Notes: generated by a model not told the origin, from the letters alone. 64,000 bases of DNA from Phycisphaerae bacterium (GCA_049965755.1 JBMFVY010000001.1:14370-78369); one strand, 5' to 3'; shown: positions 11,910 to 43,419, counted from the first letter of the stretch. Translations and numbers: made by a program.

Positions 11910-12128
11910 GCTCTCACCTGCTGATCAATTTCCCACTGACCTTCTTTCCTCATCGAGTCCGTCGCAGCGGCCGTTGGGAATACGGCTTCCTACTCGTGCC
12001 ATGAGTGCTATGAGCCGCTGGGGATGCGGTATCCTCCAGTCATCATCAATTGCGCAGCCCCCCGCGATCAACACTCTCGACGCACGATCAAACATGGATG
12101 CTCGATCTGAGCGGGTAATCTCGCCAAT

Positions 12129-13955: not shown

Positions 13956-14278
13956 TATCTTCTATTTATTTCGATCAAAACAGCAATCCAGCTTTGTATT
14001 TATTCTACGACGCGTCACCGGAAATTGTTCCCACATTGAGCAATCCTCTCGCCGGAGCCTAAAACCATCCTGAATAATTGGCAACCGAAAATGATGCTCA
14101 TTTACTCATGGATTGCACCATCGAATCGCCGAATGGGGCCGAGCGATTGCAACCAGATGCCGTGTTTGGTGTCTCAGTTCAGGTGGCGGAATCGAGAAAT
14201 ACCGGGTGAGGCCCGTTGATGGCGATTCCCCTCAAAATATCTGCGCAGCCCACCGCATGAAAATGGCCAACGGATCGC

Positions 14279-26953: not shown

Positions 26954-28102
26954 ATGCCGGATCAAACGACCGAGGAATCCAAACAACTGGAAGTCAGCGG
27001 GGGGGATGTAAGCGTCAAAAGTGCCGTTCCACGGATCAACCGTTTCTTTGAGGCGGTTACCAAGGTGGAAGGAAGCGATCTGCACATTAAGGCCGATGCC
27101 ATTCCGCGTATCCGCAAGGGGGGGCGACTGATGCAGACCAATTCCCCGGCGATGAAAAATGCGGAAATCGAATCCATGGTTAAGGAAATGCTCAACGACG
27201 AGCAGTGGCATGATTTCAGTCACCGCGGGTCGCTGGATATCGCCTACGCCATCACGCCCGTCGACCGTTTTCGGGTCAACATCTTCCGTCAGCGGGGAAT
27301 GGTGAGTCTGGCGGCACGCCGCATCAACCCCAAAATTCCGAATTTCAGCCAGCTTAATCTTCCCCCCATTTTCGAAAAAATCGCCGAACATGAGCAGGGG
27401 CTGGTCATGCTTGCCGGTATCACCGGCAGCGGCAAGAGCACCACCATTGCGGCGATGCTTGAGCAGGTCAATCAACGTCGATCTTGCCATATCGTTACGA
27501 TCGAAGACCCCATCGAATATCTGTATGTCGATAAAAAGGCGTACATCAACCAGCGTGAAGTAGGGCTGGATGTCGAGAGTTTCAGCGATGCCATCCGCTA
27601 TCTCATGCGCGAAGACCCGGATGTGATTCTCATCGGTGAGATGCGCGATAAAAACACCTTTCAGGCGGCGGTGCAGGCCGCTGAAACCGGCCACATGGTG
27701 TTTTCCACCATTCACGCCAGTTCCGCGCCCGGCGCCATCACCCGTCTGCTGGAACTTTTCCCGCCGGATATGCACACCAACATCCGCCAGGCCATCGCAA
27801 CGAATATGAAGGCAATTATTTTCCAGAAACTGGTCCCGTCGATCAAATCGGGCCTCGATCGCGTACCCGTTGTGGAAGTGATGCTCACCTCACCGTCGGT
27901 GCGTAAGTACATACTTGAAGGGCGCGAAAATGAACTCGGCCAGGTCATCCGTGGCGAGCGGCATGCCGGTATGATTGACTTCAACGACATGCTGGCGGAA
28001 CTGGTGCAGAGCGAATTTATTGCTTCCAAGGAGGCGTATCTCGCATCCCCCAATCCGGACGAACTGCGCATGCGGATGAAAGGTATCAAGACCTCAACCT
28101 GA
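26954..28102 (+). CDS. pilT: Type IV pilus retraction ATPase PilT/PilU family
   Basis: SDLHIKA, Walker A LVMLAGITGSGKSTT, Walker B DPDVILIGEMRD, His-box HMVFSTIHASSAPGAITRL and the PilT-specific block. 382 aa. Confidence 0.9.
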   Translation: MPDQTTEESKQLEVSGGDVSVKSAVPRINRFFEAVTKVEGSDLHIKADAIPRIRKGGRLMQTNSPAMKNAEIESMVKEMLNDEQWHDFSHRGSLDIAYAITPVDRFRVNIFRQRGMVSLAARRINPKIPNFSQLNLPPIFEKIAEHEQGLVMLAGITGSGKSTTIAAMLEQVNQRRSCHIVTIEDPIEYLYVDKKAYINQREVGLDVESFSDAIRYLMREDPDVILIGEMRDKNTFQAAVQAAETGHMVFSTIHASSAPGAITRLLELFPPDMHTNIRQAIATNMKAIIFQKLVPSIKSGLDRVPVVEVMLTSPSVRKYILEGRENELGQVIRGERHAGMIDFNDMLAELVQSEFIASKEAYLASPNPDELRMRMKGIKTST

Positions 28103-28261
28103 CCCCCGGCGCAGCGGACGCTTTCAGGTCGATGCGATTGGAGTCGTCGGGCCTGCAGGAGGTTGACGGTGCTGTTGCTGGCAAGATTTTCAATCTATGG
28201 TACCTTTACCCAAGTCGGTGGTCGGGTTGATCCCGAGTGAATTTCTTTCCGGCTTATTTAC

Positions 28262-29995
28262 GTGGCGGTGGTGATGCACGGCTTTGTTTATGTCAATCCG
28301 GTTTTTCTGATCGTTTTCTTCCTGATCATCCTGGGTTGGGCAAAATTTGCCACATGGATCAGCACCGATCTCGATCAGCTCAATGATCAGAACGAAACCG
28401 TCTGGCGATCTGTACTTCTCGGGTCGTTTGGCCTCAACCTCCTGCTCTGGATCATCATCCCCAACTTTGCAGGAGCCTTGATTACCAATCTGATCGTGAT
28501 CGGCGGCATCTTCGGCTATTACATCAAGATACGTGTCGCACAACTCGGCCCGCCCCCCAATCCCCTCGATATGCTCACCGGCAAACTCGGTTCCACGGCC
28601 GAACAGCGGCAGGCCAAGAAATCGGCCGGGCAGTTGGCCCTCTCTTACCTCAATGCCGCCGGGCGCGGCGCCCCGCTTCCCAAAGTGGATGATCCCGCTT
28701 ATAACGGCGTGGTGTTGCTGGACAACCTCATATTCAGTGCCTTGGAGGCCCGCGCCCAGCGTATTGATCTGATACCGTCCGAGCAGGCCTACGATGTCAC
28801 CTACACCACCGATGGCGTTGGATATCCGCAATCCGGCATGCAGCGCAGCGCCGCAGAACCGATCATCCAATCCGTCAAACTGATATCCGGGCTCTCATTG
28901 GACGAGAGGCGACGCCCTCAGAAATCATCCCTCACGGTGGTCGACGCAGCGCACCATCGGACGCCTCTGGTCATTCGTACCAGCGGAACCACCGCCGGCG
29001 AACGCCTTACTCTCGTCATGAGCAGTTCCGACAGTTACAAGATGCCGCTGGATAACATCGGCCTCTCGTCGGAGCAACTCGCCGCCGTGCGCACCATCGT
29101 CAGCGATAATTCCGGTCTGGTCATTGTGGCATCGCCGCCTCATATGGGCCGCACCACCACGCTCTATTCCCTGATTGGTGCACACGATGCGTACACCCGC
29201 AGCATTCAGACGATTGAGGCCAATCCCCGGGCGGAATTTGAATCCATCACCGTCAACCCATTCGATCCGCAGGCGATCAACGCCAGTCACAGCAAGTTGC
29301 TTCAAAGCATCTGTCTGAAAGATCCCGACATTATCCTGGTCGGGCAGTGTCCCGATGCCGCGACCGCGGAAGTCATCTGTCGCTATGCCTCCAACGATCA
29401 TCGGGTTTATCTGGGCCTGCGGGCCGGTTCCGATGCCCCGACCATCATCGATTTATGGCGAAAGCTCCTCCCGGACAAGGAACTCGCCGCCCGTCCATTG
29501 CGCGCGGTGGTCTGTCAGCGTCTCATCCGTCTCCTGTGTCCGACCTGCAAAATCCCCTATCAGCCCGACGCCGAGACACTGGCCAAATTAAATCTTCCCG
29601 TCGGCCGACAGATGCAGGTTTTCAAGGCTAACACCCAACCGGCACGTGATCCCAAGGGTAATCCGGTCAAATGCCCCGATTGCGCCAGCCTCGGATATCG
29701 CGGCGTGACAGGCTTGTTTGAAGTACTGGTGGTGACGCCGGAAATTCGGGATATGATCGCGCATGGTCGGCCGGTTGAGGAAATACGCAACGCCGCCCGG
29801 AAAAACGGCATGATGATGCTCGTGGAACAGGGCATACGCAAGTTTGCGCTGGGCATTACCTCCATCCAGGAGGTGACCCGGGCACTCAGCGCAGAGCGTG
29901 CCAAGAAAACGCGCGAGGAAAAAATTACCTCCGCCAGCGGCAGCAGCACCACCGGTGCGGGATACGCCTCTCCCGGCGAGAGTCGATCGGAATAG
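28262..29995 (+). CDS. Membrane-anchored GspE/PilB-fold protein with degenerate Walker A (predicted pseudo-ATPase)
   Basis: Three N-terminal hydrophobic helices, then GspE-like N2 block (RIDLIPSEQAYDVTYTTDGV...LDERRRPQKSSL...RTSGTTAGERLTLVM). The P-loop position reads VIVASPPHMGRTTTLYS instead of G-x-x-G-x-GK-T/S (no Lys). Walker B-like DPDIILVGQCPD; tetra-Cys zinc motif CPTCK...CPDCASLGYRG; disordered S/T/G-rich tail. Confidence 0.7.
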   Translation: MAVVMHGFVYVNPVFLIVFFLIILGWAKFATWISTDLDQLNDQNETVWRSVLLGSFGLNLLLWIIIPNFAGALITNLIVIGGIFGYYIKIRVAQLGPPPNPLDMLTGKLGSTAEQRQAKKSAGQLALSYLNAAGRGAPLPKVDDPAYNGVVLLDNLIFSALEARAQRIDLIPSEQAYDVTYTTDGVGYPQSGMQRSAAEPIIQSVKLISGLSLDERRRPQKSSLTVVDAAHHRTPLVIRTSGTTAGERLTLVMSSSDSYKMPLDNIGLSSEQLAAVRTIVSDNSGLVIVASPPHMGRTTTLYSLIGAHDAYTRSIQTIEANPRAEFESITVNPFDPQAINASHSKLLQSICLKDPDIILVGQCPDAATAEVICRYASNDHRVYLGLRAGSDAPTIIDLWRKLLPDKELAARPLRAVVCQRLIRLLCPTCKIPYQPDAETLAKLNLPVGRQMQVFKANTQPARDPKGNPVKCPDCASLGYRGVTGLFEVLVVTPEIRDMIAHGRPVEEIRNAARKNGMMMLVEQGIRKFALGITSIQEVTRALSAERAKKTREEKITSASGSSTTGAGYASPGESRSE

Positions 29996-30008
29996 CGAGC
30001 GATAATTC

Positions 30009-31649
30009 ATGATCATAGATATTGTAGTATTATTATTTCTGGCGTTGATCGTCTTCCTGATGGTCAATGAAGGCCCGTTTTCGGCATTGATCCTTCTTTT
30101 CTGCTCTCTGATTGCTTCCTTGACCGCCATGGGTTACTACGAACGCGCGGCGAATATCTTTGCCAAATGGCCGGATATGGCACGCGGGGTCGCCTTCCTT
30201 CTGATCTTTTTCGTGCTCCTTACGTCAACCCGCACCATTTTCGACTTTCTTGTCCGGGATGACATTGAACTTCCCCCTCTGCCCGCCAAAATTGTTTCCG
30301 GAGTGATCGGGTTTTTCGTCGGCATGGTTGTCATGGGTACCGTACTCATCGGCATTCAGATGCTCCCCCTCACATCCAGCATCGCCGGATACGACCGCTA
30401 CCCCAACGGTATGGCTCGAAGTTCATCTGCCATCTGGTTTGACCCGGATGGATTTGTCGAATCCATCTGGGATATGACCAGTGGTAATTCGGTCGGCGGC
30501 TCGCCGGCGTTTGCCATCGTCCATCCGCATCTGCTGCGGGAACTTTACGGCCTGCGCTACACCGTCCAGTTTGCCGGACGTAAAACACTCGCCCCCTCGC
30601 TGTTGAAAGTCATGGCGGCTGGAACCATTCCGGCTGATAAAGCATCGCTGTTCCACATTCCGCCCATGCTGGGAAAGAAAATTGTGGTTATCCGAACGGA
30701 AGTCCATCACGGATCCACGCAACCGGCCGTCTCCTCCGACTCCGGTTATTTCCGCCTCACGCCGTCCGAGGTCCGGCTGGTTACCACCGATGGGCATCAG
30801 TATTATCCCGTCGGTTTTCTCAGATATGGCGCGCTATTTCAAAAGCTCACCTTTAATTCGGCCGTGGTTGACGACTATCGGCATGTAAATGGTCACCGAG
30901 TGGTCATACAGAACTGGATATTCGCCCTTCGTCCATCGCAGAAGCCTTATTTTATTGAACTCAAAGGTACCGCACGCGGTATGATTGCCGGTGCCGCGAT
31001 CTCCAAAACGCTCGCCGCGCTTCCCATGCACGATTATCCCAAACTGGCCTATGAAAATTCCAAGCTTACCATTACCGTCGCTGCTGACGCCAAGTTGGGA
31101 ACATTGGTGGGCGTGGCGGTGCCCGCCCAGATTCGCATGTTGAAAGTCGCGGGGCTTGTGCAGGCGGCCTACAGACGCCTCGGTGTCATCAGCCGTGCCA
31201 TCACCAACAGTCAACCCCCGTGGTCGGATGCCTCTTCCCATACGGTCGGAACACCCACCGCCGAACAGGCCGGTCAGTGGCGGAGCATGGGAAACCAGTT
31301 GATTGCCAACGGCAATTCGCATGAGGAACCGTGGTGGGAAGTGTTGCAACTGCTGACGACCAGCCAGGTCAGCACCGATACGAGCCGCTCGCTGGCGCGC
31401 GAGCGTCACTTTTTCAAAAATCAGATCATTCCCCTGCTCAATGGCCAGGAGCCTGTCAATCTTCGCCTCACCCCGGGTAAGTCCACGACCATCAAGATTG
31501 CGCCGGGTAATTGGCAGATTATCCTCTGGAGCATCCACTCTTCACAAATGTACGTCTGGAGTAAGTCGGCTTCAGTGCGAATCGGGCAGTCGAACAGTGT
31601 TACGCTTGGTGGATCGGATCAGATTGTCAATTACAATCTGAGTAAATAA
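30009..31649 (+). CDS. CvpA-domain (colicin V production-like) membrane protein with large C-terminal extension
   Basis: The first ~130 aa (MIIDIVVLLFLALIVFLMVNEGPFSALILLFCSLIASLTAMGYYERAANIF...) match the CvpA multi-TM pattern. The remaining ~400 aa has no recognisable motifs. Starts 14 nt after the preceding gene. Confidence 0.5.
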   Translation: MIIDIVVLLFLALIVFLMVNEGPFSALILLFCSLIASLTAMGYYERAANIFAKWPDMARGVAFLLIFFVLLTSTRTIFDFLVRDDIELPPLPAKIVSGVIGFFVGMVVMGTVLIGIQMLPLTSSIAGYDRYPNGMARSSSAIWFDPDGFVESIWDMTSGNSVGGSPAFAIVHPHLLRELYGLRYTVQFAGRKTLAPSLLKVMAAGTIPADKASLFHIPPMLGKKIVVIRTEVHHGSTQPAVSSDSGYFRLTPSEVRLVTTDGHQYYPVGFLRYGALFQKLTFNSAVVDDYRHVNGHRVVIQNWIFALRPSQKPYFIELKGTARGMIAGAAISKTLAALPMHDYPKLAYENSKLTITVAADAKLGTLVGVAVPAQIRMLKVAGLVQAAYRRLGVISRAITNSQPPWSDASSHTVGTPTAEQAGQWRSMGNQLIANGNSHEEPWWEVLQLLTTSQVSTDTSRSLARERHFFKNQIIPLLNGQEPVNLRLTPGKSTTIKIAPGNWQIILWSIHSSQMYVWSKSASVRIGQSNSVTLGGSDQIVNYNLSK

Positions 31650-32416: not shown

Positions 32417-32497
32417 CCGGTTCGCCGGCCGGAAATGACTCAGGCGGCCGATCAAAACCGCTCTTAGACCGTGCCGCCGTATAAAAAGAGGTGACCG

Positions 32498-32770
32498 ATG
32501 GGGAAAGCGAGTGTTGATCCGGCCGAACTGCGGCGCTTTGCGCAGGGCCTCAATCAATTTAATAACGATCTTCAGACCCTGATGGCCGGTCTCAGCGCCC
32601 GCATGCGGGCGCTGGAGAGCACCTGGCGCGATCAGGAGCAGAAGAAATTCGCCGAAGCCTTCGATCAGACGGCCAAATCGCTTTCGGTTTTTCTAGAGGC
32701 CTCCAGCCAGCATGCCAAGGTGTTGATGAAAAAGGCGCAGCTGATCGAAAAATATCTCAGCGAACATTGA
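32498..32770 (+). CDS. WXG100-superfamily-like small helical hairpin protein (variant W-R-D instead of W-x-G)
   Basis: 90 aa, AAAGAGGTGA RBS. Central motif STWRDQEQKKFAEAFDQT aligns with EsxA/YukE W-x-G-x-x-x-x-x-F-x-E-x-F (e.g. NWEGQAFSRFEEQF). Predicted all-helical; Trp at residue ~43 of 90. Confidence 0.6.
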   Translation: MGKASVDPAELRRFAQGLNQFNNDLQTLMAGLSARMRALESTWRDQEQKKFAEAFDQTAKSLSVFLEASSQHAKVLMKKAQLIEKYLSEH

Positions 32771-32784
32771 GTTGAGTTGAACCG

Positions 32785-33771
32785 ATGCCACAAGGTGCCA
32801 ATGTTCAATCCATTGAACTGCTCCGGGAATTGCAGACGGTGCTGTGGAAATTTCGCGAAGCCTGCGTCAGTTCTCTCAATGATGTGGAATCGGACCTGCG
32901 CCGCACGGTGATCTGGCTTGAGACGGAACAGGATAGCTATTGGAAAAGCCAGATACGCATCCGTCATGAGGCCCTCGAGCGGGCTAAAGAGGCGCTTCGC
33001 AGTAAAAAAATATTCAAAGATGCCTCCGGCCGCCCGCAATCCGTTGTCGAGGAGCAAAAGGCGCTCAAGATCGCCATGGCGCGCATGGCGGAGGCCGAAC
33101 AGAAGCTCGCCAATGTCCGCAAATGGGTGCGTGCCCTGCAGAAAGAAATTGAACTCTACAAATCCTCGGTGGGCCGCCTCTCTCACAGCGTGGAATCGCT
33201 CGTGCCTGCCGCCGTGCATCAGCTTGACCGGCTCACGACGTCGCTGGAAGCCTACGTAAACCTTGAGATACCCCAATCCGCTGCCCACAACAGCTCAGAT
33301 CATGCAGCCGGTGCCGGATTTGCCAACCGGGCCGAGGTTCTCACGGAAACCTCCGTACCAACCACACCTGCACCGATGGAAGTTCCCACTGACCAACAGC
33401 GTGCATCTGCACAACCTGCCTCGTCGATCGATATCCCCTGTCCGCAGATATCCGGCGACATTCTGGATCAGCTAACCATCGCCGCCGGGCAACTCCCCGT
33501 AGATTCACATAAGACTCTGGTCGCGCGTTCCATCGTCCGCGCGCCGATGGGGTTCACCCTCCTGCGCCGCTCACCTGCGGATGCCGATGACAGCGGTTGG
33601 ATGTTGCTTATCGATTCGGCGGATATTTCATCCGACGCTGCATGGGTGAAACTGAGCGTTGAATCTTTGCCGGGTGATGCGGCTCTTTGGAATATGATTT
33701 TGAGACTTCCCATCAATTCCAGCGTTAGGGTGATGGATGGTGCGGTGGTGCAGATCAGCCACGTGGAATGA
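32785..33771 (+). CDS. Hypothetical protein: N-terminal ~150-aa helical/coiled-coil domain, disordered linker, C-terminal ~100-aa domain; candidate secretion substrate or adaptor
   Basis: 328 aa. Starts 15 nt after the first WXG-like gene and ends 50 nt before the second. Heptad-rich N-terminus (LRELQTVLWKFREACVSS...KEIELYKSSVGRLSHSVESL), then a Pro/Ser/Thr/Ala-rich linker. Confidence 0.5.
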   Translation: MPQGANVQSIELLRELQTVLWKFREACVSSLNDVESDLRRTVIWLETEQDSYWKSQIRIRHEALERAKEALRSKKIFKDASGRPQSVVEEQKALKIAMARMAEAEQKLANVRKWVRALQKEIELYKSSVGRLSHSVESLVPAAVHQLDRLTTSLEAYVNLEIPQSAAHNSSDHAAGAGFANRAEVLTETSVPTTPAPMEVPTDQQRASAQPASSIDIPCPQISGDILDQLTIAAGQLPVDSHKTLVARSIVRAPMGFTLLRRSPADADDSGWMLLIDSADISSDAAWVKLSVESLPGDAALWNMILRLPINSSVRVMDGAVVQISHVE

Positions 33772-33821
33772 GATGCAAGCCGTGGCGGTGAGAACTCGGT
33801 TTACCTCAGGAGGACCTGCCG

Positions 33822-34034
33822 ATGGGTGTACATGAAAGCCAGGGGCGTCTGATCAAAGCCTTCAAAATGCTCCAGACACGCTGGGCACAGATCCATACCG
33901 GCTGGAACGACGCGGCCAGCGATCATTTCCAGGAAACATTTCTGGATCCGCTTGAAGCGGATGTCCGCAGTGCCGCTCAGGCCATCGATCATATGGCGGT
34001 CATATTGGGCAACGTAAAGAGAGATTGCGAGTAA
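33822..34034 (+). CDS. WXG100-superfamily-like small protein (second copy, motif W-N-D)
   Basis: 70 aa, CAGGAGGA RBS. Motif TGWNDAASDHFQETF matches W-x-[G/D]-x-A-x-x-x-F-x-E-x-F. Immediately upstream of the FtsK/SpoIIIE ATPase gene. Confidence 0.5.
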   Translation: MGVHESQGRLIKAFKMLQTRWAQIHTGWNDAASDHFQETFLDPLEADVRSAAQAIDHMAVILGNVKRDCE

Positions 34035-34067: not shown

Positions 34068-37000
34068 ATGCAGCAGATAGCCGATCAAGCCAACAGCAGC
34101 AACTCCACATGTCCCGCCGGGCCCGCCGATGGTGTCGGCCCGCTCGAGCGGCAGCGCAGCGCCCTGCGAGACCTTGTCGCGCTGGCTTCAGAATGTGCCC
34201 GGCGCGAAGCTGAAATTAATGAAGAATTCACCACCCAACGCGATACCGCCCGGGAGCGTTATAACGCTTCGATGAAAGAAATCGAGGCGCGGTTCAAGGC
34301 CCGCACGGACGAACTGGAAAATAAAATACACGAAGAAATGGACGGCATCGAACAGCAATACCGCCGGAAATTACAGACATTCCAGGCGGCTCATCAACAA
34401 ACGTGCGCCGGCATTCAGTGGGATTATTCCGCCGCCGAGAAGACCGCCCGATCGAGTTACGACGAAGCAAAACTCCTGATTGAAACCGGGCTTGATGCGT
34501 CTCACAACCGTGCACTGCAGGAAAAAGAAACATTAAAAGAAGAGGTCGCCTCTCATCTGGAAGCCGTCGAGAATCTCTTCAAGGAAACGGCGCAGGTCAT
34601 GGCCCGATACTCGCTCGTTCCTCCGGGTATCGAACCTGAAAAGGTAAAACCCCGGCTTCCTGCCGATCTATCCGTCAAAAAAGTGATGGCCGAGGAGCTT
34701 GAACAGGCGCGCTCCCGCCTTGCGGCGCTGGCTAAACTCCCCTTGCCGAAATTCATGTCGGGAATACTGCCGATAATGATCGGCCTGGCTCTTTGCAGTG
34801 TCGCAGGGATTGCCGCTCAGATGATCAAAGGGGGCTCCGTTCCGCACATCAAGACCATCACCATCGCAGTGGGTGTGGCGGTCGTCATTGAGGTGATCAT
34901 CTACATCCTGCTTCGGCGGGCCGCCAAGAAGCAGTTCAGTGCAGCATCCTTGCCGATCATCGAGGCGCTGGCCAGCAGCCACGCTGCATCTGAGCTTTTC
35001 TCGCAGGCACAGTTGGTGGAAATTCAAGCGGCTAACGATGCGGCCCGACGCAAAGGGCAGGCTGAACTGGATCGACTCAAACAACGCACCATCCAGACAA
35101 TTAAATCACTGCAGGAAAAGCGTTCGGCCCGCCTTGCCGCTGCCGAGGCCGATCGGGCTCGATCTACCGGCGAAGCGGATGCGGAAAAAGCTTCCCTGAT
35201 GGCGGCGCAGGCCACTTCCGCCGATGCCCGGCGAAATGAACTCAAACACAACTACGAAACGGAAATGGAGGCGGCGCGCAGAACGTTCGAAGGATCGAAT
35301 GCCGCCAACGAAGAACGAACCCGGCAGGCGTGGAGTGAACTTGATCAGCGTCTTCGAACCGGTCTGGCGCAAATCGCAGCTCCCACCGTTGATACCGGAA
35401 CCTCCGGCGGATACGCACCCGACGGTCGGCCGATCTGGGATCATTGGCACGCTCCTGAGAAATTTCCCGAATTAATGCCTTTCGGCCGTCTGAGCGTCAA
35501 CCTGAAGCAGATTGTGGATCAGGATTCAGCCGGCGCTCAGGTGAAATTGCAGTTTCCAGCGGAATTCACCGTGCCGGCATCACTGGCATTCCCGCACGGC
35601 GCATCCCTCGCGGTTCTTCATCAGCGCTCCGGCCGTGGCTTGGCTGTCGAGTTTCTGCGTGTGGTTATTCTCCGTCTGCTGACCTGTCTTCCCCCCGGTC
35701 GCGCCCGCTTTACCTTGATAGACCCCGTGGGCCTGGGGCAGAGCTTTGCGGGTTTCATGCGCCTCGCGGATTACGATGATGCCCTCGTCAACGGCCGAAT
35801 CTGGACTCAGCCCGATCAGATTGAACAGCGTCTCTCGCACATGACGGAGCACATGGAAACCGTCATCCAGAAATATCTTCGTAATGAATTCCCAACCATC
35901 GACGACTACAACGCCCAGGCCGGCGAATTGGCCGAACCGTATCGATTTCTGGTGGTGGCTGATTTTCCATCCGGCTTCGGCCCCGATGCACTTCGCAGGC
36001 TGGATGCCATCGCCGCCACCGGTGCCCGCTGCGGCGTCTACGTCCTGCTGTCATCCGAACGCGAGCAGAGCGGCGATGCGGCCGTCACACTTGATAAACT
36101 TCTGTCGCATTGTGTGGTACTTACTCAGGCGGAAGGTGGCTTCCAGTGGCGGGACGACATCTTCGGCAAGTTCCCGCTTACGCTCGATACATCGCCGACA
36201 GAAACAGTTATGACTACGCTGCTCGATCAGGTGGGCAAGGCCGCCAAAGCCAGTCAGCATGTTGAAGTCTCCTTTGAAACCATCGCCCCCAAAGAATCCC
36301 AGTGGTGGACCGGTAACAGTACCGCCGATCTCACCGTAGCCATCGGTCGTATGGGGGCTACGCGGCTCCAGATGCTGCGCCTGGGTAAAAATGTGGCGCA
36401 GCATGCACTCCTTGCCGGTAAGACGGGTTCCGGTAAATCGACGCTGCTTCATGTGCTGGTGACCAATCTTGCCATGTGGTATTCGCCGGACGAGGTGGAA
36501 CTCTATCTGATCGACTTCAAAAAGGGTGTGGAATTCAAAACCTACGCAGCGCACCGCCTGCCCCATGCCCGAGCCATTGCGGTGGAAAGCGATCGTGAAT
36601 TCGGTCTCAGCGTGCTGGAGCGGCTCGATGCGGAACTCGCCCGTCGCGGTGAATTATTCCGTGCCGCCGGCGTACAGGATCTCCCGTCCTATCGCCGCAC
36701 CACCGGCAAGCCGATGCCACGAACGATTCTCGTTATTGACGAATTTCAGGAATTTTTTACGGAAGATGACACCCTTGCCCAGCAGGCGGGACTGCTCCTC
36801 GACAGACTTGTTCGGCAGGGGCGCGCTTTCGGCGTGCACCTATTGCTCGGCTCGCAGACCGTCGGCGGTACTTCAGGCCTTGCCAGAAGCACGCTTGGCC
36901 AGATGGCCGTGCGCATCGCCCTGCAGGTGAGCGATGCCGATTCACAACTGATCCTCGGCGATAATAATTCTGCCGCCAAATTGCTCTCCCGCCCCGGTGC

Positions 37001-38039
37001 CGCGATCTATAACGACGCCGGCGGTCTCATCGAGGCCAACAGCCCATTTCAGGTTGCCTGGCTCTCTGATGAAAAGCGGGACGAATTTCTTGAAGCGGTT
37101 TCCCGTCGTGCCGCCCGCGTCGCCCATGACGGAAAAACCGCATGGCAGTCGAAGCCACCGGTCGTCTTCGAAGGCAATGCCCCGGCGGATGTGCATAACA
37201 ACGAACCCCTGAAAAAACTCCTCGTTTCGCTGCCGCCTGCTGCCATTCCTCTCGAACCCCACGCCTGGACAGGCGAACCGGTGGCGATCAAGGAACCGGC
37301 GTTCGTCACATTCCGACGCCAGAGCGGCGCTAATGTCATGCTCGTCGGTCAGCAGGAAGAACAGGCGCTCGCCGTCTTGAGTTGGATGCTCATCTCTCTC
37401 GCAGCCCAATTTCCAACCAATGGTGCGAAGTTTTATCTTCTTGACGGCACGCCCGCCGGATCGCCGCTTTCCGGTATCTTCCCCCAGTTGCCGTCACTGA
37501 TGCGCGGCGACGTTCAGGTTCCCGCCTGGCGCGATATTGAAAGCGCGATTGCCGCCATCGCCGCCGAGCTTTCCCAACGGCAGAAGGACCGGCGGCCCGA
37601 CGCCCCGGCCATCTTTCTGGTCATCTATGGCATGCAACGATTCCGCATGCTGCGAAAATCCGATTCCGATTTCGGGTTTTCACTTGGCGGCGCCGATGAG
37701 GAGAAAAAGGCCGACCCCGCAAAGGATTTCCAGGAGATCATTCGCGAAGGACCCGCCTTGGGCATTCATGTGCTGACCTGGGTTGATACGATGGCTTCCA
37801 TCGAGCGCACATTTGATCGTGCGATGCTGCGTGAATTTGATCAGCGTATTCTCTTTCAGATGAGCGCAGCCGACTCAAGCACATTGATTGATTCCGTCGC
37901 CGCCAACCGGTTGGGCTTTTACCGTGCCCTGCTGTGCAGCGAAGAACGCGGCACGATTGAAAAATTCCGCCCCTACGGCCTGCCCAAGGCCGCTGAACTT
38001 CAGCAGCTACGATCCGCTGATGCCGCAACGTCGGCGTAA
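34068..38039 (+). CDS. FtsK/SpoIIIE-family multi-domain ATPase, EssC/EccC-like (N-terminal coiled coil, 2 TM helices, three P-loop-type domains of which only the middle one is canonical)
   Basis: 1323 aa. Residues ~1-220 coiled coil. Two TM helices (ILPIMIGLALCSVAGIAAQMI; ITIAVGVAVVIEVIIYILL). Domain 1 has a degenerate P-loop (LAVLHQRSGRGLAVEF). Domain 2 is canonical: HALLAGKTGSGKSTLLHVL (Walker A), RTILVIDEFQEF (Walker B). Domain 3 is degenerate (NVMLVGQQEEQALAV; IFLVIYGMQRF). Confidence 0.8.
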   Translation: MQQIADQANSSNSTCPAGPADGVGPLERQRSALRDLVALASECARREAEINEEFTTQRDTARERYNASMKEIEARFKARTDELENKIHEEMDGIEQQYRRKLQTFQAAHQQTCAGIQWDYSAAEKTARSSYDEAKLLIETGLDASHNRALQEKETLKEEVASHLEAVENLFKETAQVMARYSLVPPGIEPEKVKPRLPADLSVKKVMAEELEQARSRLAALAKLPLPKFMSGILPIMIGLALCSVAGIAAQMIKGGSVPHIKTITIAVGVAVVIEVIIYILLRRAAKKQFSAASLPIIEALASSHAASELFSQAQLVEIQAANDAARRKGQAELDRLKQRTIQTIKSLQEKRSARLAAAEADRARSTGEADAEKASLMAAQATSADARRNELKHNYETEMEAARRTFEGSNAANEERTRQAWSELDQRLRTGLAQIAAPTVDTGTSGGYAPDGRPIWDHWHAPEKFPELMPFGRLSVNLKQIVDQDSAGAQVKLQFPAEFTVPASLAFPHGASLAVLHQRSGRGLAVEFLRVVILRLLTCLPPGRARFTLIDPVGLGQSFAGFMRLADYDDALVNGRIWTQPDQIEQRLSHMTEHMETVIQKYLRNEFPTIDDYNAQAGELAEPYRFLVVADFPSGFGPDALRRLDAIAATGARCGVYVLLSSEREQSGDAAVTLDKLLSHCVVLTQAEGGFQWRDDIFGKFPLTLDTSPTETVMTTLLDQVGKAAKASQHVEVSFETIAPKESQWWTGNSTADLTVAIGRMGATRLQMLRLGKNVAQHALLAGKTGSGKSTLLHVLVTNLAMWYSPDEVELYLIDFKKGVEFKTYAAHRLPHARAIAVESDREFGLSVLERLDAELARRGELFRAAGVQDLPSYRRTTGKPMPRTILVIDEFQEFFTEDDTLAQQAGLLLDRLVRQGRAFGVHLLLGSQTVGGTSGLARSTLGQMAVRIALQVSDADSQLILGDNNSAAKLLSRPGAAIYNDAGGLIEANSPFQVAWLSDEKRDEFLEAVSRRAARVAHDGKTAWQSKPPVVFEGNAPADVHNNEPLKKLLVSLPPAAIPLEPHAWTGEPVAIKEPAFVTFRRQSGANVMLVGQQEEQALAVLSWMLISLAAQFPTNGAKFYLLDGTPAGSPLSGIFPQLPSLMRGDVQVPAWRDIESAIAAIAAELSQRQKDRRPDAPAIFLVIYGMQRFRMLRKSDSDFGFSLGGADEEKKADPAKDFQEIIREGPALGIHVLTWVDTMASIERTFDRAMLREFDQRILFQMSAADSSTLIDSVAANRLGFYRALLCSEERGTIEKFRPYGLPKAAELQQLRSADAATSA

Positions 38040-38131: not shown

Positions 38132-39244
38132 TCAGTGTATTCGGCGGAACATCCATGATGCCGTCAGCAGGCTCAGAACGGCAATGATGGACATCGGTAT
38201 GAGTTCCGGCATCAATTGGTGCACATTAGCCCCTTCAAGAAATGCCTCGCGTGCCGCCTGCACATCGTACCGCAGCGGATTGATAAGCGTGATCTTCTGC
38301 ACGAAACGCGGCATGTTGGATATCGGTGTCGCCAGGCCCGACAAAAGGGCACAAGGCATCACCAGCACAAATGTGCCCAGAAGAGCCTGTTGCATCGTGG
38401 ATGAAATCGAAGACACCAGCAGACCCAACCCCGCCGCTGCAATAATAAAGATGACAAAAGTGAGTACGATGGCCGCTGCCGAACCGTAATACGGAACATC
38501 AAACCAGTAGCGGACGATGACGAAGATGATGGCGGATTGACCCAACCCGATCAGAATAGGCGGAATGGTTTTACCCGCCATAATTTCCAGCGGTGTAAAA
38601 GGTGTTACCAGAAGCTGGTCAAATGTACCCTGTTCGCGTTCGCGCGCAATCGACATGGCGGTAATCACCATCACCGCCAGCATGGTGATAAGGCCGATCA
38701 TCCCCGGCACAATCTGCCATCGCGATAGCAGATTTGGATTAAACCAGGAACGTATCTGCAAAACCATCGGCGGAGCAATACCGGGATTCGCGGCCGATAA
38801 ATCTGCGTTGAACTGATTCTGAATTTCATTCAGGTAGCCGATAGCCAGAGCTGCCGTATTGGAATTGCGGCCGTCGGCAATAACCTGTACCTGCGCACTG
38901 CGGCCGGTGGCAATATCTCGGTCAAAGTGCTGTGGAATCTGGATGATCAGCAATGCCCTGCGCGAATCCAGCAAGGGGCGGGCGCGGCGGATATTTCCCA
39001 CCGATGCGACGCAATCAAAAATGCCCGAGCCGTTGATTCGACCGATGAACCGCGTCGACTCGCTGGAGTGGCTTTGATCCACCAGAACGTAGGGCACATG
39101 ATTAAGATCAAACGTGCCGGCATAGCCGAAAATAATCATCTGCAGGATCGGTGGCCCCAGCACAACAAATCGGCTGCGCGGGTCCTTGAAGATCGCCGTG
39201 AGTTCCTTGCGGATCAATGCCAAAATACGGAATATGATGTTCAT
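38132..39244 (-). CDS. ABC-2 type transporter permease
   Basis: 370 aa. One N-terminal TM, large periplasmic loop, then 5 C-terminal TMs (ABC-2/YhhJ-like topology). Part of a HlyD-ABC-permease-permease operon. Confidence 0.8.
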   Translation of the reverse strand: MNIIFRILALIRKELTAIFKDPRSRFVVLGPPILQMIIFGYAGTFDLNHVPYVLVDQSHSSESTRFIGRINGSGIFDCVASVGNIRRARPLLDSRRALLIIQIPQHFDRDIATGRSAQVQVIADGRNSNTAALAIGYLNEIQNQFNADLSAANPGIAPPMVLQIRSWFNPNLLSRWQIVPGMIGLITMLAVMVITAMSIAREREQGTFDQLLVTPFTPLEIMAGKTIPPILIGLGQSAIIFVIVRYWFDVPYYGSAAAIVLTFVIFIIAAAGLGLLVSSISSTMQQALLGTFVLVMPCALLSGLATPISNMPRFVQKITLINPLRYDVQAAREAFLEGANVHQLMPELIPMSIIAVLSLLTASWMFRRIH

Positions 39245-39245
39245 T

Positions 39246-40379
39246 TCATCCCAGCCGTTTCACTGTCAGCCGGCGCGTCAGGCCCAGAAAAATAACGGCC
39301 ATCAACACCAGCACCGCCGCATTAGGCAATATCACACTCCAGATATCACCCGCCAGAAACAACGTCTGCAGGAGTGCCACGAAATATCGTGCCGGAAGCA
39401 GGTAGGTGATGATCTGAATCGCTTCAGGCATGCTGCGTATATCAAAAATAAACCCTGAAAGCATCATCGCCGGTAGAAAGGTCAGCAGCAGCGCCGCCTG
39501 GCTGGCGATGAACTGGTTCTTTGTTCGCGTGGAAATCAGCAGCCCCATCCCCAGCGCCACCAGCAGGTAAAGCCCCGACACCAGAATCAACAGCGTCAGC
39601 GAACCACGGATCGGCACGTGAAACAATACTCTTGCCGCCGTCACCGCCACCGCCAGCCCGACCATCCCCAGACAGAAATACGGGACGATTTTGCTGATAA
39701 TGATTTCGCTCGGTTGCACGGGCGTAGCGAAAAGCGACTCAAACGTGCCGCGCTCCCATTCTCTTGCCACAACCAGTGCCGTCATCAGCGCCCCGATCAG
39801 CGTCATGATCAGCACCAATAACCCCGGCACCAGAAAATAGCGGCTGTCCATACTGCGGTTAAACCAGACCTGCTGCTCGATGGTGACCGGCTGCGCATAA
39901 CTGCGGCCGTGCGTCAGTTCCCACTGCGCAAGCCAGACACCCAGAACGCCCCGGGCATAGTTCTGAATTAATCGCGAGCGATTCGCGTCGATGCTGTTGA
40001 CCGTGAACTGAATATTCGCATGCCCGTTTCGCAAATTGCGGGAAAAGTCATGCCGCAGGCGCACAATCCCGTCGACGGCTCCCGCTGCCAGAAGTTTTTC
40101 CGCCTCAACCATGGAGTTAACCGCCTCCGGATGGAAATATCTCGACCCGGCAAACGCTCCAAATACCGATTGTGCCGACGGCGAGTGATCTTCCATCACC
40201 ACCGCCACGGGAACATGGTGGGCGTCAAGCGAGAGCCCGTAACCGAAAAGCAGGATCAGCAGAAGCGGAAGCACGATCCCCAGTGCAATGCTGCTCGGAT
40301 CGCGAATCATCTGCAGCGTTTCCTTGCGGCTCATCGCGACGATGCGGCGCAGCTTTCCAAGTGGAGCGGGGTGATTCAT
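39246..40379 (-). CDS. ABC-2 type transporter permease (second copy)
   Basis: 377 aa, same topology as the adjacent permease, 2-nt intergenic gap. Confidence 0.8.
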   Translation of the reverse strand: MNHPAPLGKLRRIVAMSRKETLQMIRDPSSIALGIVLPLLLILLFGYGLSLDAHHVPVAVVMEDHSPSAQSVFGAFAGSRYFHPEAVNSMVEAEKLLAAGAVDGIVRLRHDFSRNLRNGHANIQFTVNSIDANRSRLIQNYARGVLGVWLAQWELTHGRSYAQPVTIEQQVWFNRSMDSRYFLVPGLLVLIMTLIGALMTALVVAREWERGTFESLFATPVQPSEIIISKIVPYFCLGMVGLAVAVTAARVLFHVPIRGSLTLLILVSGLYLLVALGMGLLISTRTKNQFIASQAALLLTFLPAMMLSGFIFDIRSMPEAIQIITYLLPARYFVALLQTLFLAGDIWSVILPNAAVLVLMAVIFLGLTRRLTVKRLG

Positions 40380-42217: not shown

Positions 42218-42218
42218 C

Positions 42219-43253: not shown

Positions 43254-43419
43254 AACCTTTCAATGGACCGCCAAAACTTACATGTTGCCCGCTTGCGCAA
43301 CCGGTAAACTATGGCCCCCATGCAGCAGCTTGTTTTCTTTGCCCAATCAGCCGAACATTATTGTAAGTGGCGGCGGCGGCACACGCTATGAGCCGCAAAA
43401 CAGCTCTGGCACGGTTGAA

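What the first reader, a model, noticed from the sequence alone, without database searches (positions are those of the whole stretch)
32498..34034. Two WXG100-like proteins carry W-x-D instead of W-x-G and bracket a helical 328-aa protein
Both small ORFs match the extended EsxA/YukE turn motif W-x-[G]-x-x-x-x-x-F-x-E-x-F. In both, Gly is replaced by Asp (STWRDQEQKKFAEAF; TGWNDAASDHFQETF). A shared substitution in both partners suggests a lineage-specific variant of the hairpin turn, not random decay. The 328-aa protein between them has a long N-terminal helical domain, a low-complexity linker and a C-terminal globular domain. This resembles LXG/EsxB-type T7SS substrates or an EspB-like adaptor, though no toxin motif is recognisable.
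Basis: partly seen in the sequence, partly recalled or inferred. Interest (0 to 1): 0.55.

Follow-up and report, generated by a model that had tools for sequence, protein, structure and literature searches.

The report
Planctomycete minimal WXG100–FtsK secretion-like operon
The three proteins belong to a four-gene operon found across the phylum Planctomycetota: two small ESAT-6-like hairpins with an invariant W-x-D turn, a long coiled-coil protein derived from the same fold, and a membrane-anchored EssC-like ATPase. It is a toxin-less, membrane-bound relative of a known but functionally untested "WXG100/FtsK" module.

Summary
ORF1 (90 aa), ORF2 (328 aa) and ORF3 (70 aa) lie at the stated coordinates, and the motif W-x-D-x5-F-x-E-x-F occurs only in ORF1 and ORF3. 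ORF1 is a genuine WXG100 protein. Its closest solved relative is H. pylori HP0062, whose "WRD" turn is already published. ORF3 is a shortened WXG100-type hairpin. W and D are invariant in both families across about 60 Planctomycetota loci. ORF1 relatives on Caballeronia, Helicobacter, Rhodococcus and Deinococcus plasmids also carry W-x-D, so it marks a subfamily across phyla, not one lineage. ORF2 is a long two-helix hairpin whose first 50 residues align to ORF1, followed by a linker and an Imm33-like domain. Its positional counterparts elsewhere carry nucleases. The fourth gene (ORF4, 1323 aa) is an EssC/EccC-like ATPase with one active P-loop and, unlike the plasmid relatives examined, two transmembrane helices. 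ORF1-ORF4 keep the same order across the phylum, among housekeeping genes. The most likely reading is a minimal T7SS-like exporter, but secretion is inferred, not shown. It is a new variant of a known kind, of moderate interest.

The parts
32486..32491 (+). AAGAGG Shine-Dalgarno-like site 6 nt upstream of the ORF1 ATG
   Evidence: Read directly from the sequence. The sigma-70 and terminator scans gave nothing above shuffled expectation.
32498..32770 (+). ORF1, 90 aa: HP0062-type WXG100 protein. The W43-R-D45 turn is at nt 32624-32632. Y86 near the C-terminus is invariant.
   Evidence: Pfam PF06013 E 4.7e-10, above the gathering score. Best PDB hits are HP0062 3FX7/2GTS at E 1.3e-6, 30% identity over the full length. 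At least 806 database homologues, many named WXG100/YukE by their sources. W43, D45, F51 and Y86 are invariant in 59 orthologues.
32785..33264 (+). ORF2 N-terminal domain (aa 1-160): a long antiparallel two-helix hairpin. Its first ~50 residues are WXG100-like, with the motif W44-[LI]-[EH]-x-[DE]48 ... W53. Y157 is invariant.
   Evidence: AF2 model with helices 6-76 and 88-159, pLDDT about 90. hhalign of the ORF2 N-domain family against the ORF1 family: probability 74.5%, E 2.7e-5, W44 aligned on W43. Column counts. The family has 2574 representatives at E<=1e-3, with the domain N-terminal in all 150 listed. No Pfam family matches.
33271..33366 (+). ORF2 low-complexity, disordered linker (aa 163-194)
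   Evidence: pLDDT below 50. This region varies in length and composition among homologues.
33382..33768 (+). ORF2 C-terminal alpha/beta domain (aa 200-328), Imm33-like, with a D-S-G-W motif. It is an optional module found in a subset of Phycisphaerae.
   Evidence: The window protein itself is sub-threshold for PF24719 (E 0.082). 29 of 45 homologues match at E<=0.01, best 3.8e-12. pLDDT is 86-95. The domain is absent from most Planctomycetia orthologues, which are 176-250 aa.
33822..34034 (+). ORF3, 70 aa: short divergent WXG100-like hairpin. The W28-N-D30 turn is at nt 33903-33911. C69 is nearly invariant.
   Evidence: AF2 pLDDT 88.6 with helices 3-24 and 30-69. The top 18 Foldseek PDB hits are all WXG100 proteins, HP0062 first, though E is only 0.2-1.6. 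WXG100 scores are sub-threshold for this sequence: Pfam E 0.018, TIGR03930 E 0.0022. 25 of 57 orthologues hit PF06013, best 1.4e-7. The ORF3 family profile hits ORF1 at E 1.3e-4, and hhalign gives E 5e-4 with W-x-D in register.
34068..38039 (+). ORF4, 1323 aa: EssC/EccC-like FtsK/SpoIIIE ATPase. It has an N-terminal helical region (aa ~30-215, nt 34155-34712), two hydrophobic helices (aa ~228-285, nt 34749-34922), a second helical region (aa 290-440) and a three-part ATPase region (aa 533-1307, nt 35664-37988). The only Walker A is GKTGSGKS at aa 784-791 (nt 36417-36440).
   Evidence: PF01580 E 3.7e-35. The best NCBIfam hits are EccCa and EssC, partial and below cutoff. Best PDB hits are T. 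curvata EccC 4NH0 at 2e-37, then EccC5 and YukB. Walker A and hydrophobicity. 37 of 37 full-length orthologues have exactly one Walker A, and most have the paired hydrophobic segments. aa 533-1307 align to plasmid FtsK-like ATPases at E 1e-124 to 5e-74. The helical regions are inferred from composition only.

Best explanation
The finding is the substrate/adaptor half of a four-gene operon, ORF1-ORF2-ORF3-ORF4. This operon is the Planctomycetota version of the 'WXG100 / EssC-like FtsK' module known from H. pylori (HP0062/HP0066) and from TerY-P/CoCoNuT loci.

ORF1 is an HP0062-type WXG100 hairpin. ORF3 is a shortened paralogue. ORF2 is an elongated, WXG100-derived coiled-coil hairpin with an exchangeable C-terminal module, here an Imm33-like domain rather than the nuclease seen in relatives. 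In this subfamily the turn is W-x-D instead of W-x-G. In the ORF3 model the Asp is the first residue of helix 2, so an N-cap role is inferred.

Proposed mechanism (inferred). The three helical proteins assemble side by side into an elongated helical bundle, as Esx dimers, PE-PPE pairs and the LXG-Lap1-Lap2 complex do. The bundle docks on a hexamer of ORF4. ORF4 is held in the cytoplasmic membrane by two helices per subunit and hydrolyses ATP only in its central P-loop domain. This exports the bundle, or inserts it into the membrane, with the ORF2 C-terminal domain as passenger. The invariant Tyr near the ORF1 C-terminus is a candidate recognition signal.

Shown here: homology, folds, motif invariance, gene order, ATPase architecture and the relationship to toxin-bearing modules. 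Inferred: complex formation, ATPase docking, export, and any route across the outer membrane.
For: WXG100 identity of ORF1 and WXG100 fold and relationship of ORF3. The ORF2 N-terminus is homologous to ORF1.

The four genes keep the same order and strand in essentially all sufficiently long loci among 61 from Phycisphaerae and Planctomycetia. No other gene is conserved nearby, and the neighbours are housekeeping genes such as proC and efp.

ORF4 is closest to EccC/EssC among solved structures. It has one conserved Walker A and two conserved hydrophobic helices.

Cross-phylum modules have the same parts. In Helicobacter sp. the order is WXG100(WGD), helical protein with C-terminal WHH nuclease, SUKH immunity protein, a 77-aa protein, FtsK. 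In Caballeronia it is WXG100(WQD), a 436-aa protein (per Bell et al. 2024, a coiled-coil/REase fusion in such loci), a 113-aa protein, a 76-aa protein, FtsK. Rhodococcus and Deinococcus have the same parts in another order. This is the polymorphic pattern of trafficking domain plus variable C-terminus described for T7SS substrates (PMC3482391).

Precedent for a 1:1:1 bundle of an N-terminal helical domain with two helix-turn-helix partners: PMC10801868. A C-terminal Tyr is conserved in ORF1 orthologues of all five phyla.
Against: No secretion has ever been shown for any Gram-negative WXG100/FtsK cluster (PMC10765036).

The closest ATPase relatives lack a membrane-spanning pair: three (Caballeronia, Rhodococcus, Deinococcus) show no credible hydrophobic segment and the Helicobacter one only a single weak one. 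Bell et al. 2024 argue that such relatives need a different, non-secretory mechanism.

None of the other T7SSa or T7SSb membrane components, and no outer-membrane component, is conserved next to the operon.

The AF2 monomer model of ORF2 runs a continuous helix through W44, so the WXG100-like segment is not modelled as a turn. The ORF2 fold matches only generic coiled-coil hairpins.

The YxxxD/E and HxxxD/ExxhxxxH export motifs are absent or not conserved. The ORF3 evidence rests on many weak signals rather than one strong one. No multimer prediction could be run.
Confidence: 0.55

Rival explanations
1. The operon is a cytoplasmic, non-secretory conflict or stress module. As proposed for the TM-less relatives in TerY-P/CoCoNuT loci, the EssC-like ATPase and its WXG100 partners would act inside the cell, for example remodelling or releasing an effector or sensing invading DNA. 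The Planctomycetota operon would then be a domesticated, toxin-less descendant tethered to the membrane, and nothing would be exported.
For: ORF4 aligns far better to the plasmid ATPases (about 770-800 aa, E 1e-124 to 5e-74) than to EccC (about 200 aa, E 2e-37). Those relatives sit in TerY-P/CARF/VWA or TerD contexts and next to nuclease/immunity pairs. Bell et al. 2024 discuss the same possibility. The ORF2 C-terminus is an immunity-type domain, not a toxin. PADLOC models SspH and mad8 hit the ATPase domain.
Against: The paired transmembrane helices are conserved across the phylum, which is hard to explain for a purely cytoplasmic machine. The operon lies among housekeeping genes, not in defence islands, and lacks VWA, kinase, phosphatase and McrBC partners. 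The PADLOC hits cover only the generic FtsK P-loop domain. ORF1-3 have no convincing defence-model hits: only weak partial matches of ORF1 to ZorA (E 4e-4) and CARF2 (E 0.01), and none for ORF2 or ORF3.
Confidence: 0.22
2. ORF2 is a structural part of the machine rather than a substrate. Its long antiparallel coiled-coil hairpin would act like the central stalk of type III secretion and rotary ATPases (SctO/FliJ, V-ATPase subunit D). It would bind in or on the ORF4 hexamer, or pair with ORF4's own N-terminal helical region. ORF1 and ORF3 would be the true cargo or regulators.
Against: The fold matches are generic to any long hairpin: CT398, Smc arms, EnvC and chemoreceptors score as well or better. 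Counterparts in other phyla carry nuclease domains (WHH in Helicobacter; REase-like per Bell et al. 2024), which fits cargo better than a stalk. The N-terminus is homologous to a WXG100 substrate.
Confidence: 0.15
3. ORF3 is not a WXG100 relative. It would be an unrelated small helical protein whose W-x-D...F-x-E-x-F match is coincidental or convergent.
For: ORF3 alone is below every curated threshold. It has no PDB sequence hit as a single sequence. Foldseek E-values are 0.2 or worse. hhalign probability against the ORF1 family is only 30%. The small third proteins of the Caballeronia and Helicobacter modules have no W motif and do not match the ORF3 profile.
Against: W28 and D30 are invariant in 57 orthologues, in register with ORF1. 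25 of 57 orthologues hit PF06013, down to 1.4e-7. The family profile hits S. aureus EsxA (E 0.011), the window's ORF1 (1.3e-4) and the Caballeronia WXG100 protein (4.5e-8). All 18 top fold matches are WXG100 proteins.
Confidence: 0.04

Closest known systems
H. pylori HP0062 (PDB 3FX7, 2GTS) with the FtsK/SpoIIIE protein HP0066, called the 'WXG100 secretion system' island (Jang et al. 2009 as cited in PMC3397514; PMC4978471)
   Same: ORF1 is 30% identical to HP0062 over its whole length, with the same size and the same W-R-D turn. Both are encoded near an FtsK/SpoIIIE ATPase. A Helicobacter plasmid module has the same gene order as the window: WXG100-like, helical protein, small protein, ATPase.
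   Different: The Helicobacter middle protein ends in a WHH (HNH-fold) nuclease and is followed by a SUKH immunity gene. The window's ORF2 ends in an Imm33-like domain with no separate immunity gene. The Helicobacter ATPase is shorter (823 aa), lacks the TM pair (one weak hydrophobic segment only) and aligns over only about 61% of the ATPase-region query. HP0062 itself has no established function.
EssC-like ATPase / two-WXG100 / coiled-coil-nuclease operon embedded in TerY-P triad and Type III-A CoCoNuT loci (Bell et al. 2024, PMC11090510; Anantharaman, Iyer and Aravind 2012, cited there)
   Same: Both have an ATPase with three ATPase-like regions of which only the central one is active, and a long N-terminal helical extension. 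Both have one recognisable WXG100 protein, a second small helical protein, and a coiled-coil protein with a C-terminal add-on. ORF4 aa 539-1303 align to the Caballeronia example over about 800 residues (E 2e-81). ORF1 matches its WXG100 protein, which has WQD (A4 profile E 5e-24).
   Different: The window's ATPase has two transmembrane helices, and the CoCoNuT-linked ones have none. The window has no VWA, CARF, PP2C, kinase or McrBC-like neighbours. ORF2 has no nuclease domain. The ORF2 and ORF3 profiles show at best faint similarity to the Caballeronia 436-aa and 76-aa proteins.
T7SSb LXG effector with Lap1/Lap2 targeting factors (TelA-LXG/LapA3/LapA4, PDB 8GMH; PMC10801868), and the related EsxB/C/D-EsaD complex
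   Same: Both have an N-terminal helical domain with a variable C-terminus, flanked by two small helix-turn-helix proteins, next to an EssC-type ATPase. The LXG complex is a 1:1:1 elongated bundle that serves as the secretion signal. This is the working model adopted here.
   Different: ORF2 has no sequence match to LXG. It is modelled as a simple two-helix hairpin, not the nine-helix, two-subdomain LXG fold. No FxxxD or NKxxDD-type motif was found. No toxin domain is present. The host is a diderm.
Canonical WXG100 proteins and EccC/EssC of T7SSa/T7SSb (ESAT-6/CFP-10, S. aureus EsxA, B. anthracis EsxB)
   Same: The proteins are about 100 aa helix-turn-helix hairpins with W in the turn and the downstream F-x-E-x-F pattern. 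They are genetically linked to an FtsK/SpoIIIE ATPase that is closest to EccC/EssC.
   Different: Asp replaces the almost invariant Gly. Only one ATPase domain is recognisably EccC-like. There are no FHA domains, no EccB/D/E/MycP and no EsaA/EssA/EssB genes, and no conserved YxxxD/E or HxxxD/ExxhxxxH motif.
Polymorphic toxins with N-terminal WXG/LXG trafficking domains, and Imm33 (DUF2185) immunity proteins (Zhang et al. 2012, PMC3482391)
   Same: ORF2 has a WXG100-like N-terminus followed by a variable C-terminal module. Imm33 is listed there as immunity against HNH-fold toxins, and the Helicobacter counterpart of ORF2 carries an HNH-fold WHH toxin.
   Different: In ORF2 the immunity-type domain sits where the toxin would be. 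No toxin is recognisable in the operon, and most orthologues lack any C-terminal domain.

Membership tests
WXG100 (Pfam PF06013), ORF1 | Profile match above the curated threshold | tested here: met
   40 bits against a cutoff of 27.3, E 4.7e-10. The stricter TIGR03930 subfamily cutoff is not reached: 31.5 against 44.85.
WXG100 (Pfam PF06013), ORF1 | About 100 residues forming a helix-turn-helix hairpin | tested here: met
   90 aa. It aligns end to end, with one gap, to the crystal structure of the HP0062 hairpin. No model of ORF1 itself was made.
WXG100 (Pfam PF06013), ORF1 and ORF3 | Trp-x-Gly in the turn | tested here: not met
   W is present, but Gly is replaced by an invariant Asp in both families. 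HP0062 shows the same exception and is treated in the literature as ESAT-6-like.
WXG100 (Pfam PF06013), ORF3 | Profile match above the curated threshold | tested here: inconclusive
   The window sequence scores 15.7 bits against a cutoff of 27.3. At family level, 25 of 57 orthologues match at E<=0.1, best 1.4e-7. The profile hits EsxA at 0.011 and ORF1 at 1.3e-4.
WXG100 (Pfam PF06013), ORF3 | Helix-turn-helix hairpin fold | tested here: met
   AF2 pLDDT 88.6, helices 3-24 and 30-69 with W28 in the turn. The top 18 PDB fold matches are WXG100 proteins, with TM up to 0.77. The first helix is about half the usual length.
Type VII secretion system (T7SSa/T7SSb) | WXG100 gene(s) linked to a membrane-bound FtsK/SpoIIIE (EccC/EssC) ATPase | tested here: met
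   Same operon. ORF4's best structural relatives are EccC, EccC5 and YukB. Two hydrophobic helices are present.
Type VII secretion system (T7SSa/T7SSb) | EccC/EssC architecture with three P-loop ATPase domains (and FHA domains in EssC) | tested here: inconclusive
   There is one canonical Walker A. The flanking regions are not detectable as ATPase domains against the PDB, apart from YukB at E 0.036. They do align to the three-part plasmid relatives. No FHA hit.
Type VII secretion system (T7SSa/T7SSb) | Additional conserved membrane components (EccB/D/E and MycP, or EsaA/EssA/EssB) | tested here: not met
   No gene family other than the four is conserved in the 8-kb flanks of 61 loci. The window's neighbours are SOD, a CvpA-like protein, T2SSE ATPases and an ABC transporter. 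The rest of the genome was not searched.
Type VII secretion system (T7SSa/T7SSb) | ATPase-dependent export of the WXG100 proteins | not testable with these tools
   This needs fractionation or secretion assays. The literature says it is unconfirmed for all Gram-negative clusters.
LXG domain (T7SSb toxin trafficking domain) | Sequence match to the LXG family and the multi-helix, two-subdomain LXG fold | tested here: not met
   No LXG hit in the window protein or in 57 orthologues. The model is a two-helix hairpin. No LXG, EspB or PE-PPE structure appears in the top 50-60 fold matches.
Imm33-like domain (Pfam PF24719), ORF2 C-terminus | Profile match above the curated threshold | tested here: inconclusive
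   The window protein scores 13.2 bits against a cutoff of 27 (E 0.082). 29 of 45 homologues match at E<=0.01, best 3.8e-12. The D-S-G-W motif and a confident alpha/beta model are present. No structural comparison specific to this domain was obtained.
CoCoNuT/TerY-P-associated EssC-like / WXG100 operon (Bell et al. 2024) | EssC-like ATPase with only the central ATPase domain active and a long N-terminal coiled coil | tested here: met
   A single central Walker A in 37 of 37 orthologues. An 800-residue alignment to the Caballeronia example. The N-terminal region is helical by composition only.
CoCoNuT/TerY-P-associated EssC-like / WXG100 operon (Bell et al. 2024) | ATPase without transmembrane helices, with the operon embedded between VWA genes of a TerY-P/McrBC-type locus | tested here: not met
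   Two conserved hydrophobic helices. No VWA, PP2C, kinase or McrBC-like neighbours.
CoCoNuT/TerY-P-associated EssC-like / WXG100 operon (Bell et al. 2024) | Two WXG100-type proteins plus a coiled-coil protein fused to a nuclease | tested here: inconclusive
   Two WXG100-type proteins and a coiled-coil protein are present in the same order. The C-terminal module is Imm33-like or absent, not a nuclease. ORF2 and ORF3 similarity to the Caballeronia counterparts is not significant.

The most novel reading that the evidence does not exclude
Planctomycetota carry, as a conserved chromosomal feature across both classes sampled, a domesticated descendant of a mobile cytoplasmic WXG100/FtsK toxin module. 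The descendant lost its nuclease and sometimes kept or fused an immunity-type domain. Its ATPase gained two transmembrane helices. It now works as the simplest known T7SS-like translocon, in which a single membrane protein (hexameric ORF4) exports a three-protein bundle whose members all derive from the WXG100 fold. It would serve a housekeeping envelope function in a diderm bacterium.
Probability: 0.2. Interest if true: 0.75.

Novelty: new variant of a known kind. Interest (0 to 1): 0.5.

Why it matters
WXG100/FtsK gene pairs outside Actinomycetota and Bacillota have been listed since 2011, but none has been shown to secrete anything (PMC10765036). This work gives three concrete handles on that question.

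1. W-x-D in place of W-x-G is a diagnostic signature of a WXG100 subfamily that spans at least five phyla and travels with one particular clade of EssC-like ATPases.

2. The two unannotated partner families can now be placed. The middle-protein family has at least 2,500 sequence clusters and no Pfam family. Both partners appear to derive from the WXG100 fold, and the middle one shows the polymorphic "trafficking domain plus variable C-terminus" pattern of T7SS effectors.

3. The Planctomycetota version is the one with a membrane-anchored ATPase. It also has very high sequence conservation and a housekeeping gene context.

The third point makes it the best candidate for testing whether a minimal WXG100/EssC pair can translocate proteins, and for asking what such a system does in a diderm. 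If it does not secrete, it would instead show that WXG100 proteins have a primary intracellular role as partners of FtsK-like ATPases.

Tried and rejected
- Conserved export motifs: HxxxD/ExxhxxxH is absent. YxxxD/E occurs once, in ORF2 at Y157-E161. Only the Tyr is conserved, and the acidic residue is present in 11 of 57 orthologues.
- Known anti-phage system: PADLOC gave only generic FtsK-domain hits for ORF4 (SspH, mad8), nothing for ORF2 or ORF3, and only weak partial ZorA and CARF2 hits for ORF1.
- Extra conserved components near the operon: none were found by clustering all ORFs of 61 loci. A recurrent upstream block in some Planctomycetia is proC/efp.
- Further WXG100-like paralogues in the 64-kb window: none.
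- Promoter and terminator scans were no better than shuffled sequence.
- Detection of the degenerate ATPase domains of ORF4 against the PDB was essentially negative. They were recovered only through the plasmid relatives.
- A direct match of the ORF2 and ORF3 profiles to the Caballeronia and Helicobacter counterparts was not significant. The Rhodococcus and Deinococcus middle proteins do match the ORF2 profile (2.4e-8 and 2.3e-5).
- The AFDB fold library was unavailable.
- Anantharaman et al. 2012 could not be read and is cited only through Bell et al. 2024.
Full report
**What is in the sequence**

The window comes from a Phycisphaerae (Planctomycetota) metagenome-assembled genome. ORF2 is 100% identical to an NCBI protein from a "Phycisphaerae bacterium".

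Four same-strand ORFs lie 14, 50 and 33 nt apart:
- ORF1, 32498-32770, 90 aa
- ORF2, 32785-33771, 328 aa
- ORF3, 33822-34034, 70 aa
- ORF4, 34068-38039, 1323 aa

An AAGAGG site precedes ORF1. The extended motif W-x-[DG]-x5-F-x-E-x-F occurs only in ORF1 and ORF3 among all six-frame ORFs of the window, against about 0.005 matches expected.

Upstream lie a Fe/Mn superoxide dismutase, a CvpA-like membrane protein and two T2SSE-family ATPases. Downstream, on the other strand, lie an ABC-2/HlyD transporter and ArsA.

**ORF1**

ORF1 passes the Pfam WXG100 gathering score (E 4.7e-10). It has at least 806 close homologues, all 90 aa, and many are already named "WXG100 family type VII secretion target" or "YukE" by their sources.

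Its best solved relative is not a Gram-positive Esx protein. It is H. pylori HP0062 (3FX7/2GTS; E 1.3e-6; 30% identity end to end). HP0062 has the same W-R-D turn. [quoted passage not shown]

So ORF1 is an annotated member of a known family, and its D-for-G change has been seen before.

**ORF3**

ORF3 alone is below every curated threshold (Pfam E 0.018, TIGR03930 E 0.0022). Several weaker lines of evidence agree that it is a shortened WXG100-type hairpin:
- Its AlphaFold2 model (pLDDT 88.6) is a helix-turn-helix with W28 in the turn and D30 starting helix 2.
- Its 18 best PDB fold matches are all WXG100 proteins, HP0062 first. E-values are weak, as expected for 70 residues.
- 25 of 57 orthologues hit PF06013, down to E 1.4e-7.
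- The family profile hits S. aureus EsxA (E 0.011), the window's ORF1 (E 1.3e-4) and a Caballeronia WXG100 protein (E 4.5e-8).
- hhalign puts its W-x-D in register with ORF1's (E 5e-4).

**ORF2**

The AF2 model (pLDDT 84) shows three parts:
- one very long antiparallel hairpin (helices 6-76 and 88-159);
- a disordered linker (163-194);
- a confident alpha/beta domain (200-328).

Profile-profile comparison does align ORF2 residues 1-50 to ORF1 residues 1-49, with W44 on W43 (probability 74.5%, E 2.7e-5). ORF2 carries W44-[LI]-[EH]-x-[DE]48 and an invariant W53. The N-terminus therefore appears to derive from the WXG100 fold, although the monomer model runs a continuous helix through this segment.

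The C-terminal domain is Imm33-like. The window protein is sub-threshold (E 0.082), but 29 of 45 homologues match PF24719 at E<=0.01, best 3.8e-12. Imm33 (DUF2185) was defined as an immunity domain against HNH-fold nuclease toxins (PMC3482391).

**ORF4**

ORF4 is an FtsK/SpoIIIE ATPase. Its best solved relatives are EccC (4NH0, E 2e-37), EccC5 and YukB. It has:
- a single Walker A (GKTGSGKS, aa 784);
- two hydrophobic helices at about aa 228-285;
- proline/glycine-poor, highly charged regions on both sides of the helices.

**Conservation across the phylum**

A scan of species-representative genomes with ORF1 returned 61 loci. Sixty are labelled Planctomycetota (Phycisphaerae, Tepidisphaerales, Pirellulales, Thermoguttaceae, Planctomycetaceae), and one (L021) is binned as Acidobacteriota.

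ORF1, ORF2, ORF3 and ORF4 occur in the same order and on the same strand in essentially every locus long enough to show them. No other gene family is conserved in the 8-kb flanks. A recurrent upstream block in some Planctomycetia is proC/efp.

Family-level conservation:
- W and D of the turn are invariant in both small families.
- ORF1 is unusually conserved, with 67% mean column identity across classes.
- ORF2 ranges from 176 to 381 aa. The roughly 165-aa hairpin is the conserved core.
- The ORF2 C-terminus is absent or low-complexity, or a different ~50-aa module, or the Imm33-like domain.
- The ORF2 N-domain family has 2,574 representatives at 50% identity clustering (E<=1e-3).
- All 37 full-length ORF4 orthologues have exactly one Walker A, and nearly all have the hydrophobic pair.

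**Relatives outside the phylum**

Searching annotated plasmids found modules with the same parts.

| Host (locus) | Gene order |
|---|---|
| Caballeronia pSBC2-5 (L062), a TerY-P/CoCoNuT-type locus | VWA, WXG100 (W-Q-D), 436-aa protein, 113-aa protein, 76-aa protein, FtsK-like ATPase, CARF, VWA, PP2C, kinase, AAA |
| Helicobacter sp. plasmid (L064) | 89-aa WXG100-like (W-G-D), 340-aa helical protein ending in a WHH (HNH-fold) nuclease (PF14414, E 1e-11), SUKH-1 immunity protein, 77-aa protein, FtsK-like ATPase |
| Rhodococcus (L063, next to TerD genes) and Deinococcus (L065) plasmids | The same parts in another order, with W-K-D, W-R-D and W-Q-D |

ORF4 residues 533-1307 align to these ATPases over about 770-800 residues (E 1e-124 to 5e-74; the Helicobacter one aligns over aa 529-1015, E 4e-61). 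This is far more than the roughly 200 residues shared with EccC. None of them has the hydrophobic pair; the Helicobacter ATPase shows one weak hydrophobic segment and the others none credible.

The ORF1 profile hits the small proteins of all four modules (E 5e-24 to 6e-10). The ORF2 profile hits the Rhodococcus and Deinococcus middle proteins (2.4e-8 and 2.3e-5), but not the Caballeronia or Helicobacter ones.

This matches the published description of an EssC-like ATPase with only its central domain active, an N-terminal coiled coil, no transmembrane helices, two WXG100 proteins and a coiled-coil/nuclease fusion. That source notes the operon also occurs on its own (Bell et al. 2024, PMC11090510). 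It also matches the H. pylori "WXG100 secretion system" island, which contains an HNH nuclease (PMC4978471).

**Interpretation**

W-x-D is not a quirk of one lineage. It is the signature of a cross-phylum WXG100 subfamily that travels with one clade of EssC-like ATPases.

The middle gene follows the logic of a polymorphic effector: a helical, WXG100-derived N-domain with an exchangeable C-terminus. ORF2 is not an LXG or EspB family member, and here the exchangeable module is an immunity-type domain or is missing.

The Planctomycetota operon differs from its relatives in four ways:
- a membrane-anchored ATPase;
- no toxin and no separate immunity gene;
- a housekeeping gene context;
- distribution across the phylum with strong conservation.

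I favour (0.55) a minimal T7SS-like exporter. In this model a bundle of ORF1, ORF2 and ORF3 is recognised by hexameric ORF4, by analogy with Esx dimers, PE-PPE pairs and the LXG-Lap1-Lap2 complex (PMC10801868). A Tyr three to five residues from the C-terminus of ORF1 is conserved in all five phyla and is a candidate docking signal.

The main rivals are a non-secretory cytoplasmic role like that suspected for the TM-less relatives (0.22), and ORF2 acting as a stalk-like machine part (0.15).

No Gram-negative WXG100/FtsK cluster has been shown to secrete anything (PMC10765036). The mechanism therefore remains inference.

**Limits**

- No multimer prediction was possible.
- The AFDB fold library was unavailable.
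- Anantharaman et al. 2012 could not be read.
- hhalign E-values are for single comparisons.
- The locus scan depended on exact peptide patterns, so it is not a census.
- The helical character of the ORF4 extensions rests on composition only.

Noticed in passing
window 26954-31649 (+): Two T2SSE-family secretion ATPase genes (26954-28102 and 28262-29995) and a 546-aa protein with a CvpA (colicin V production) N-terminal membrane domain (30009-31649) lie just upstream of the SOD gene and the operon. They are not conserved next to the operon in other loci.
   Followed up: partly
window 38132-45192 (-): Convergent with ORF4 are two ABC-2 permeases, a double ABC ATPase, a HlyD-type adaptor and an ArsA-type ATPase. 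This is an unrelated transporter cluster.
   Followed up: partly
L033:9643-11049: In one Thermoguttaceae genome a 468-aa ORF is inserted between the ORF3 and ORF4 homologues. This splits the otherwise tight operon and may be an insertion element.
   Followed up: no
L021 (labelled Acidobacteriota) and protein P0156 (labelled Bacillota): These carry ORF1 homologues 57-72% identical to planctomycete ones, and L021 has the full four-gene operon. Mis-binning of metagenomic contigs is the likely cause.
   Followed up: no
ORF2 family members of 270-297 aa, e.g. P0173, P0184, P0192, P0195: A third C-terminal variant exists: a ~50-residue module with a recurring pattern like Y-[RK]-V-F-D-S...A..YA.......C.[IV]YD. 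It is distinct from the Imm33-like domain and is not annotated.
   Followed up: no
window 34026-34028 (ORF3 C69); ORF2 hairpin turn in Planctomycetia loci, e.g. L025, L027, L031: ORF3 has a nearly invariant Cys two residues from its C-terminus. Planctomycetia ORF2 orthologues have a conserved Cys in the hairpin turn (P-[AS]-C-[IV]-D-E), where Phycisphaerae have Ser. This could reflect a disulfide or a metal site between the partners.
   Followed up: no
L063 (Rhodococcus plasmid) 11465-14574: The related FtsK/WXG100 module sits directly beside TerD-family and DUF475 genes. This echoes the published link between this module and Ter stress-response loci.
   Followed up: no
L065:6554-9397 (Deinococcus plasmid): This FtsK-like relative aligns to ORF4 over about 800 residues but has no canonical Walker A (G-x4-G-K-[ST]) at all. 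It may be catalytically dead.
   Followed up: no
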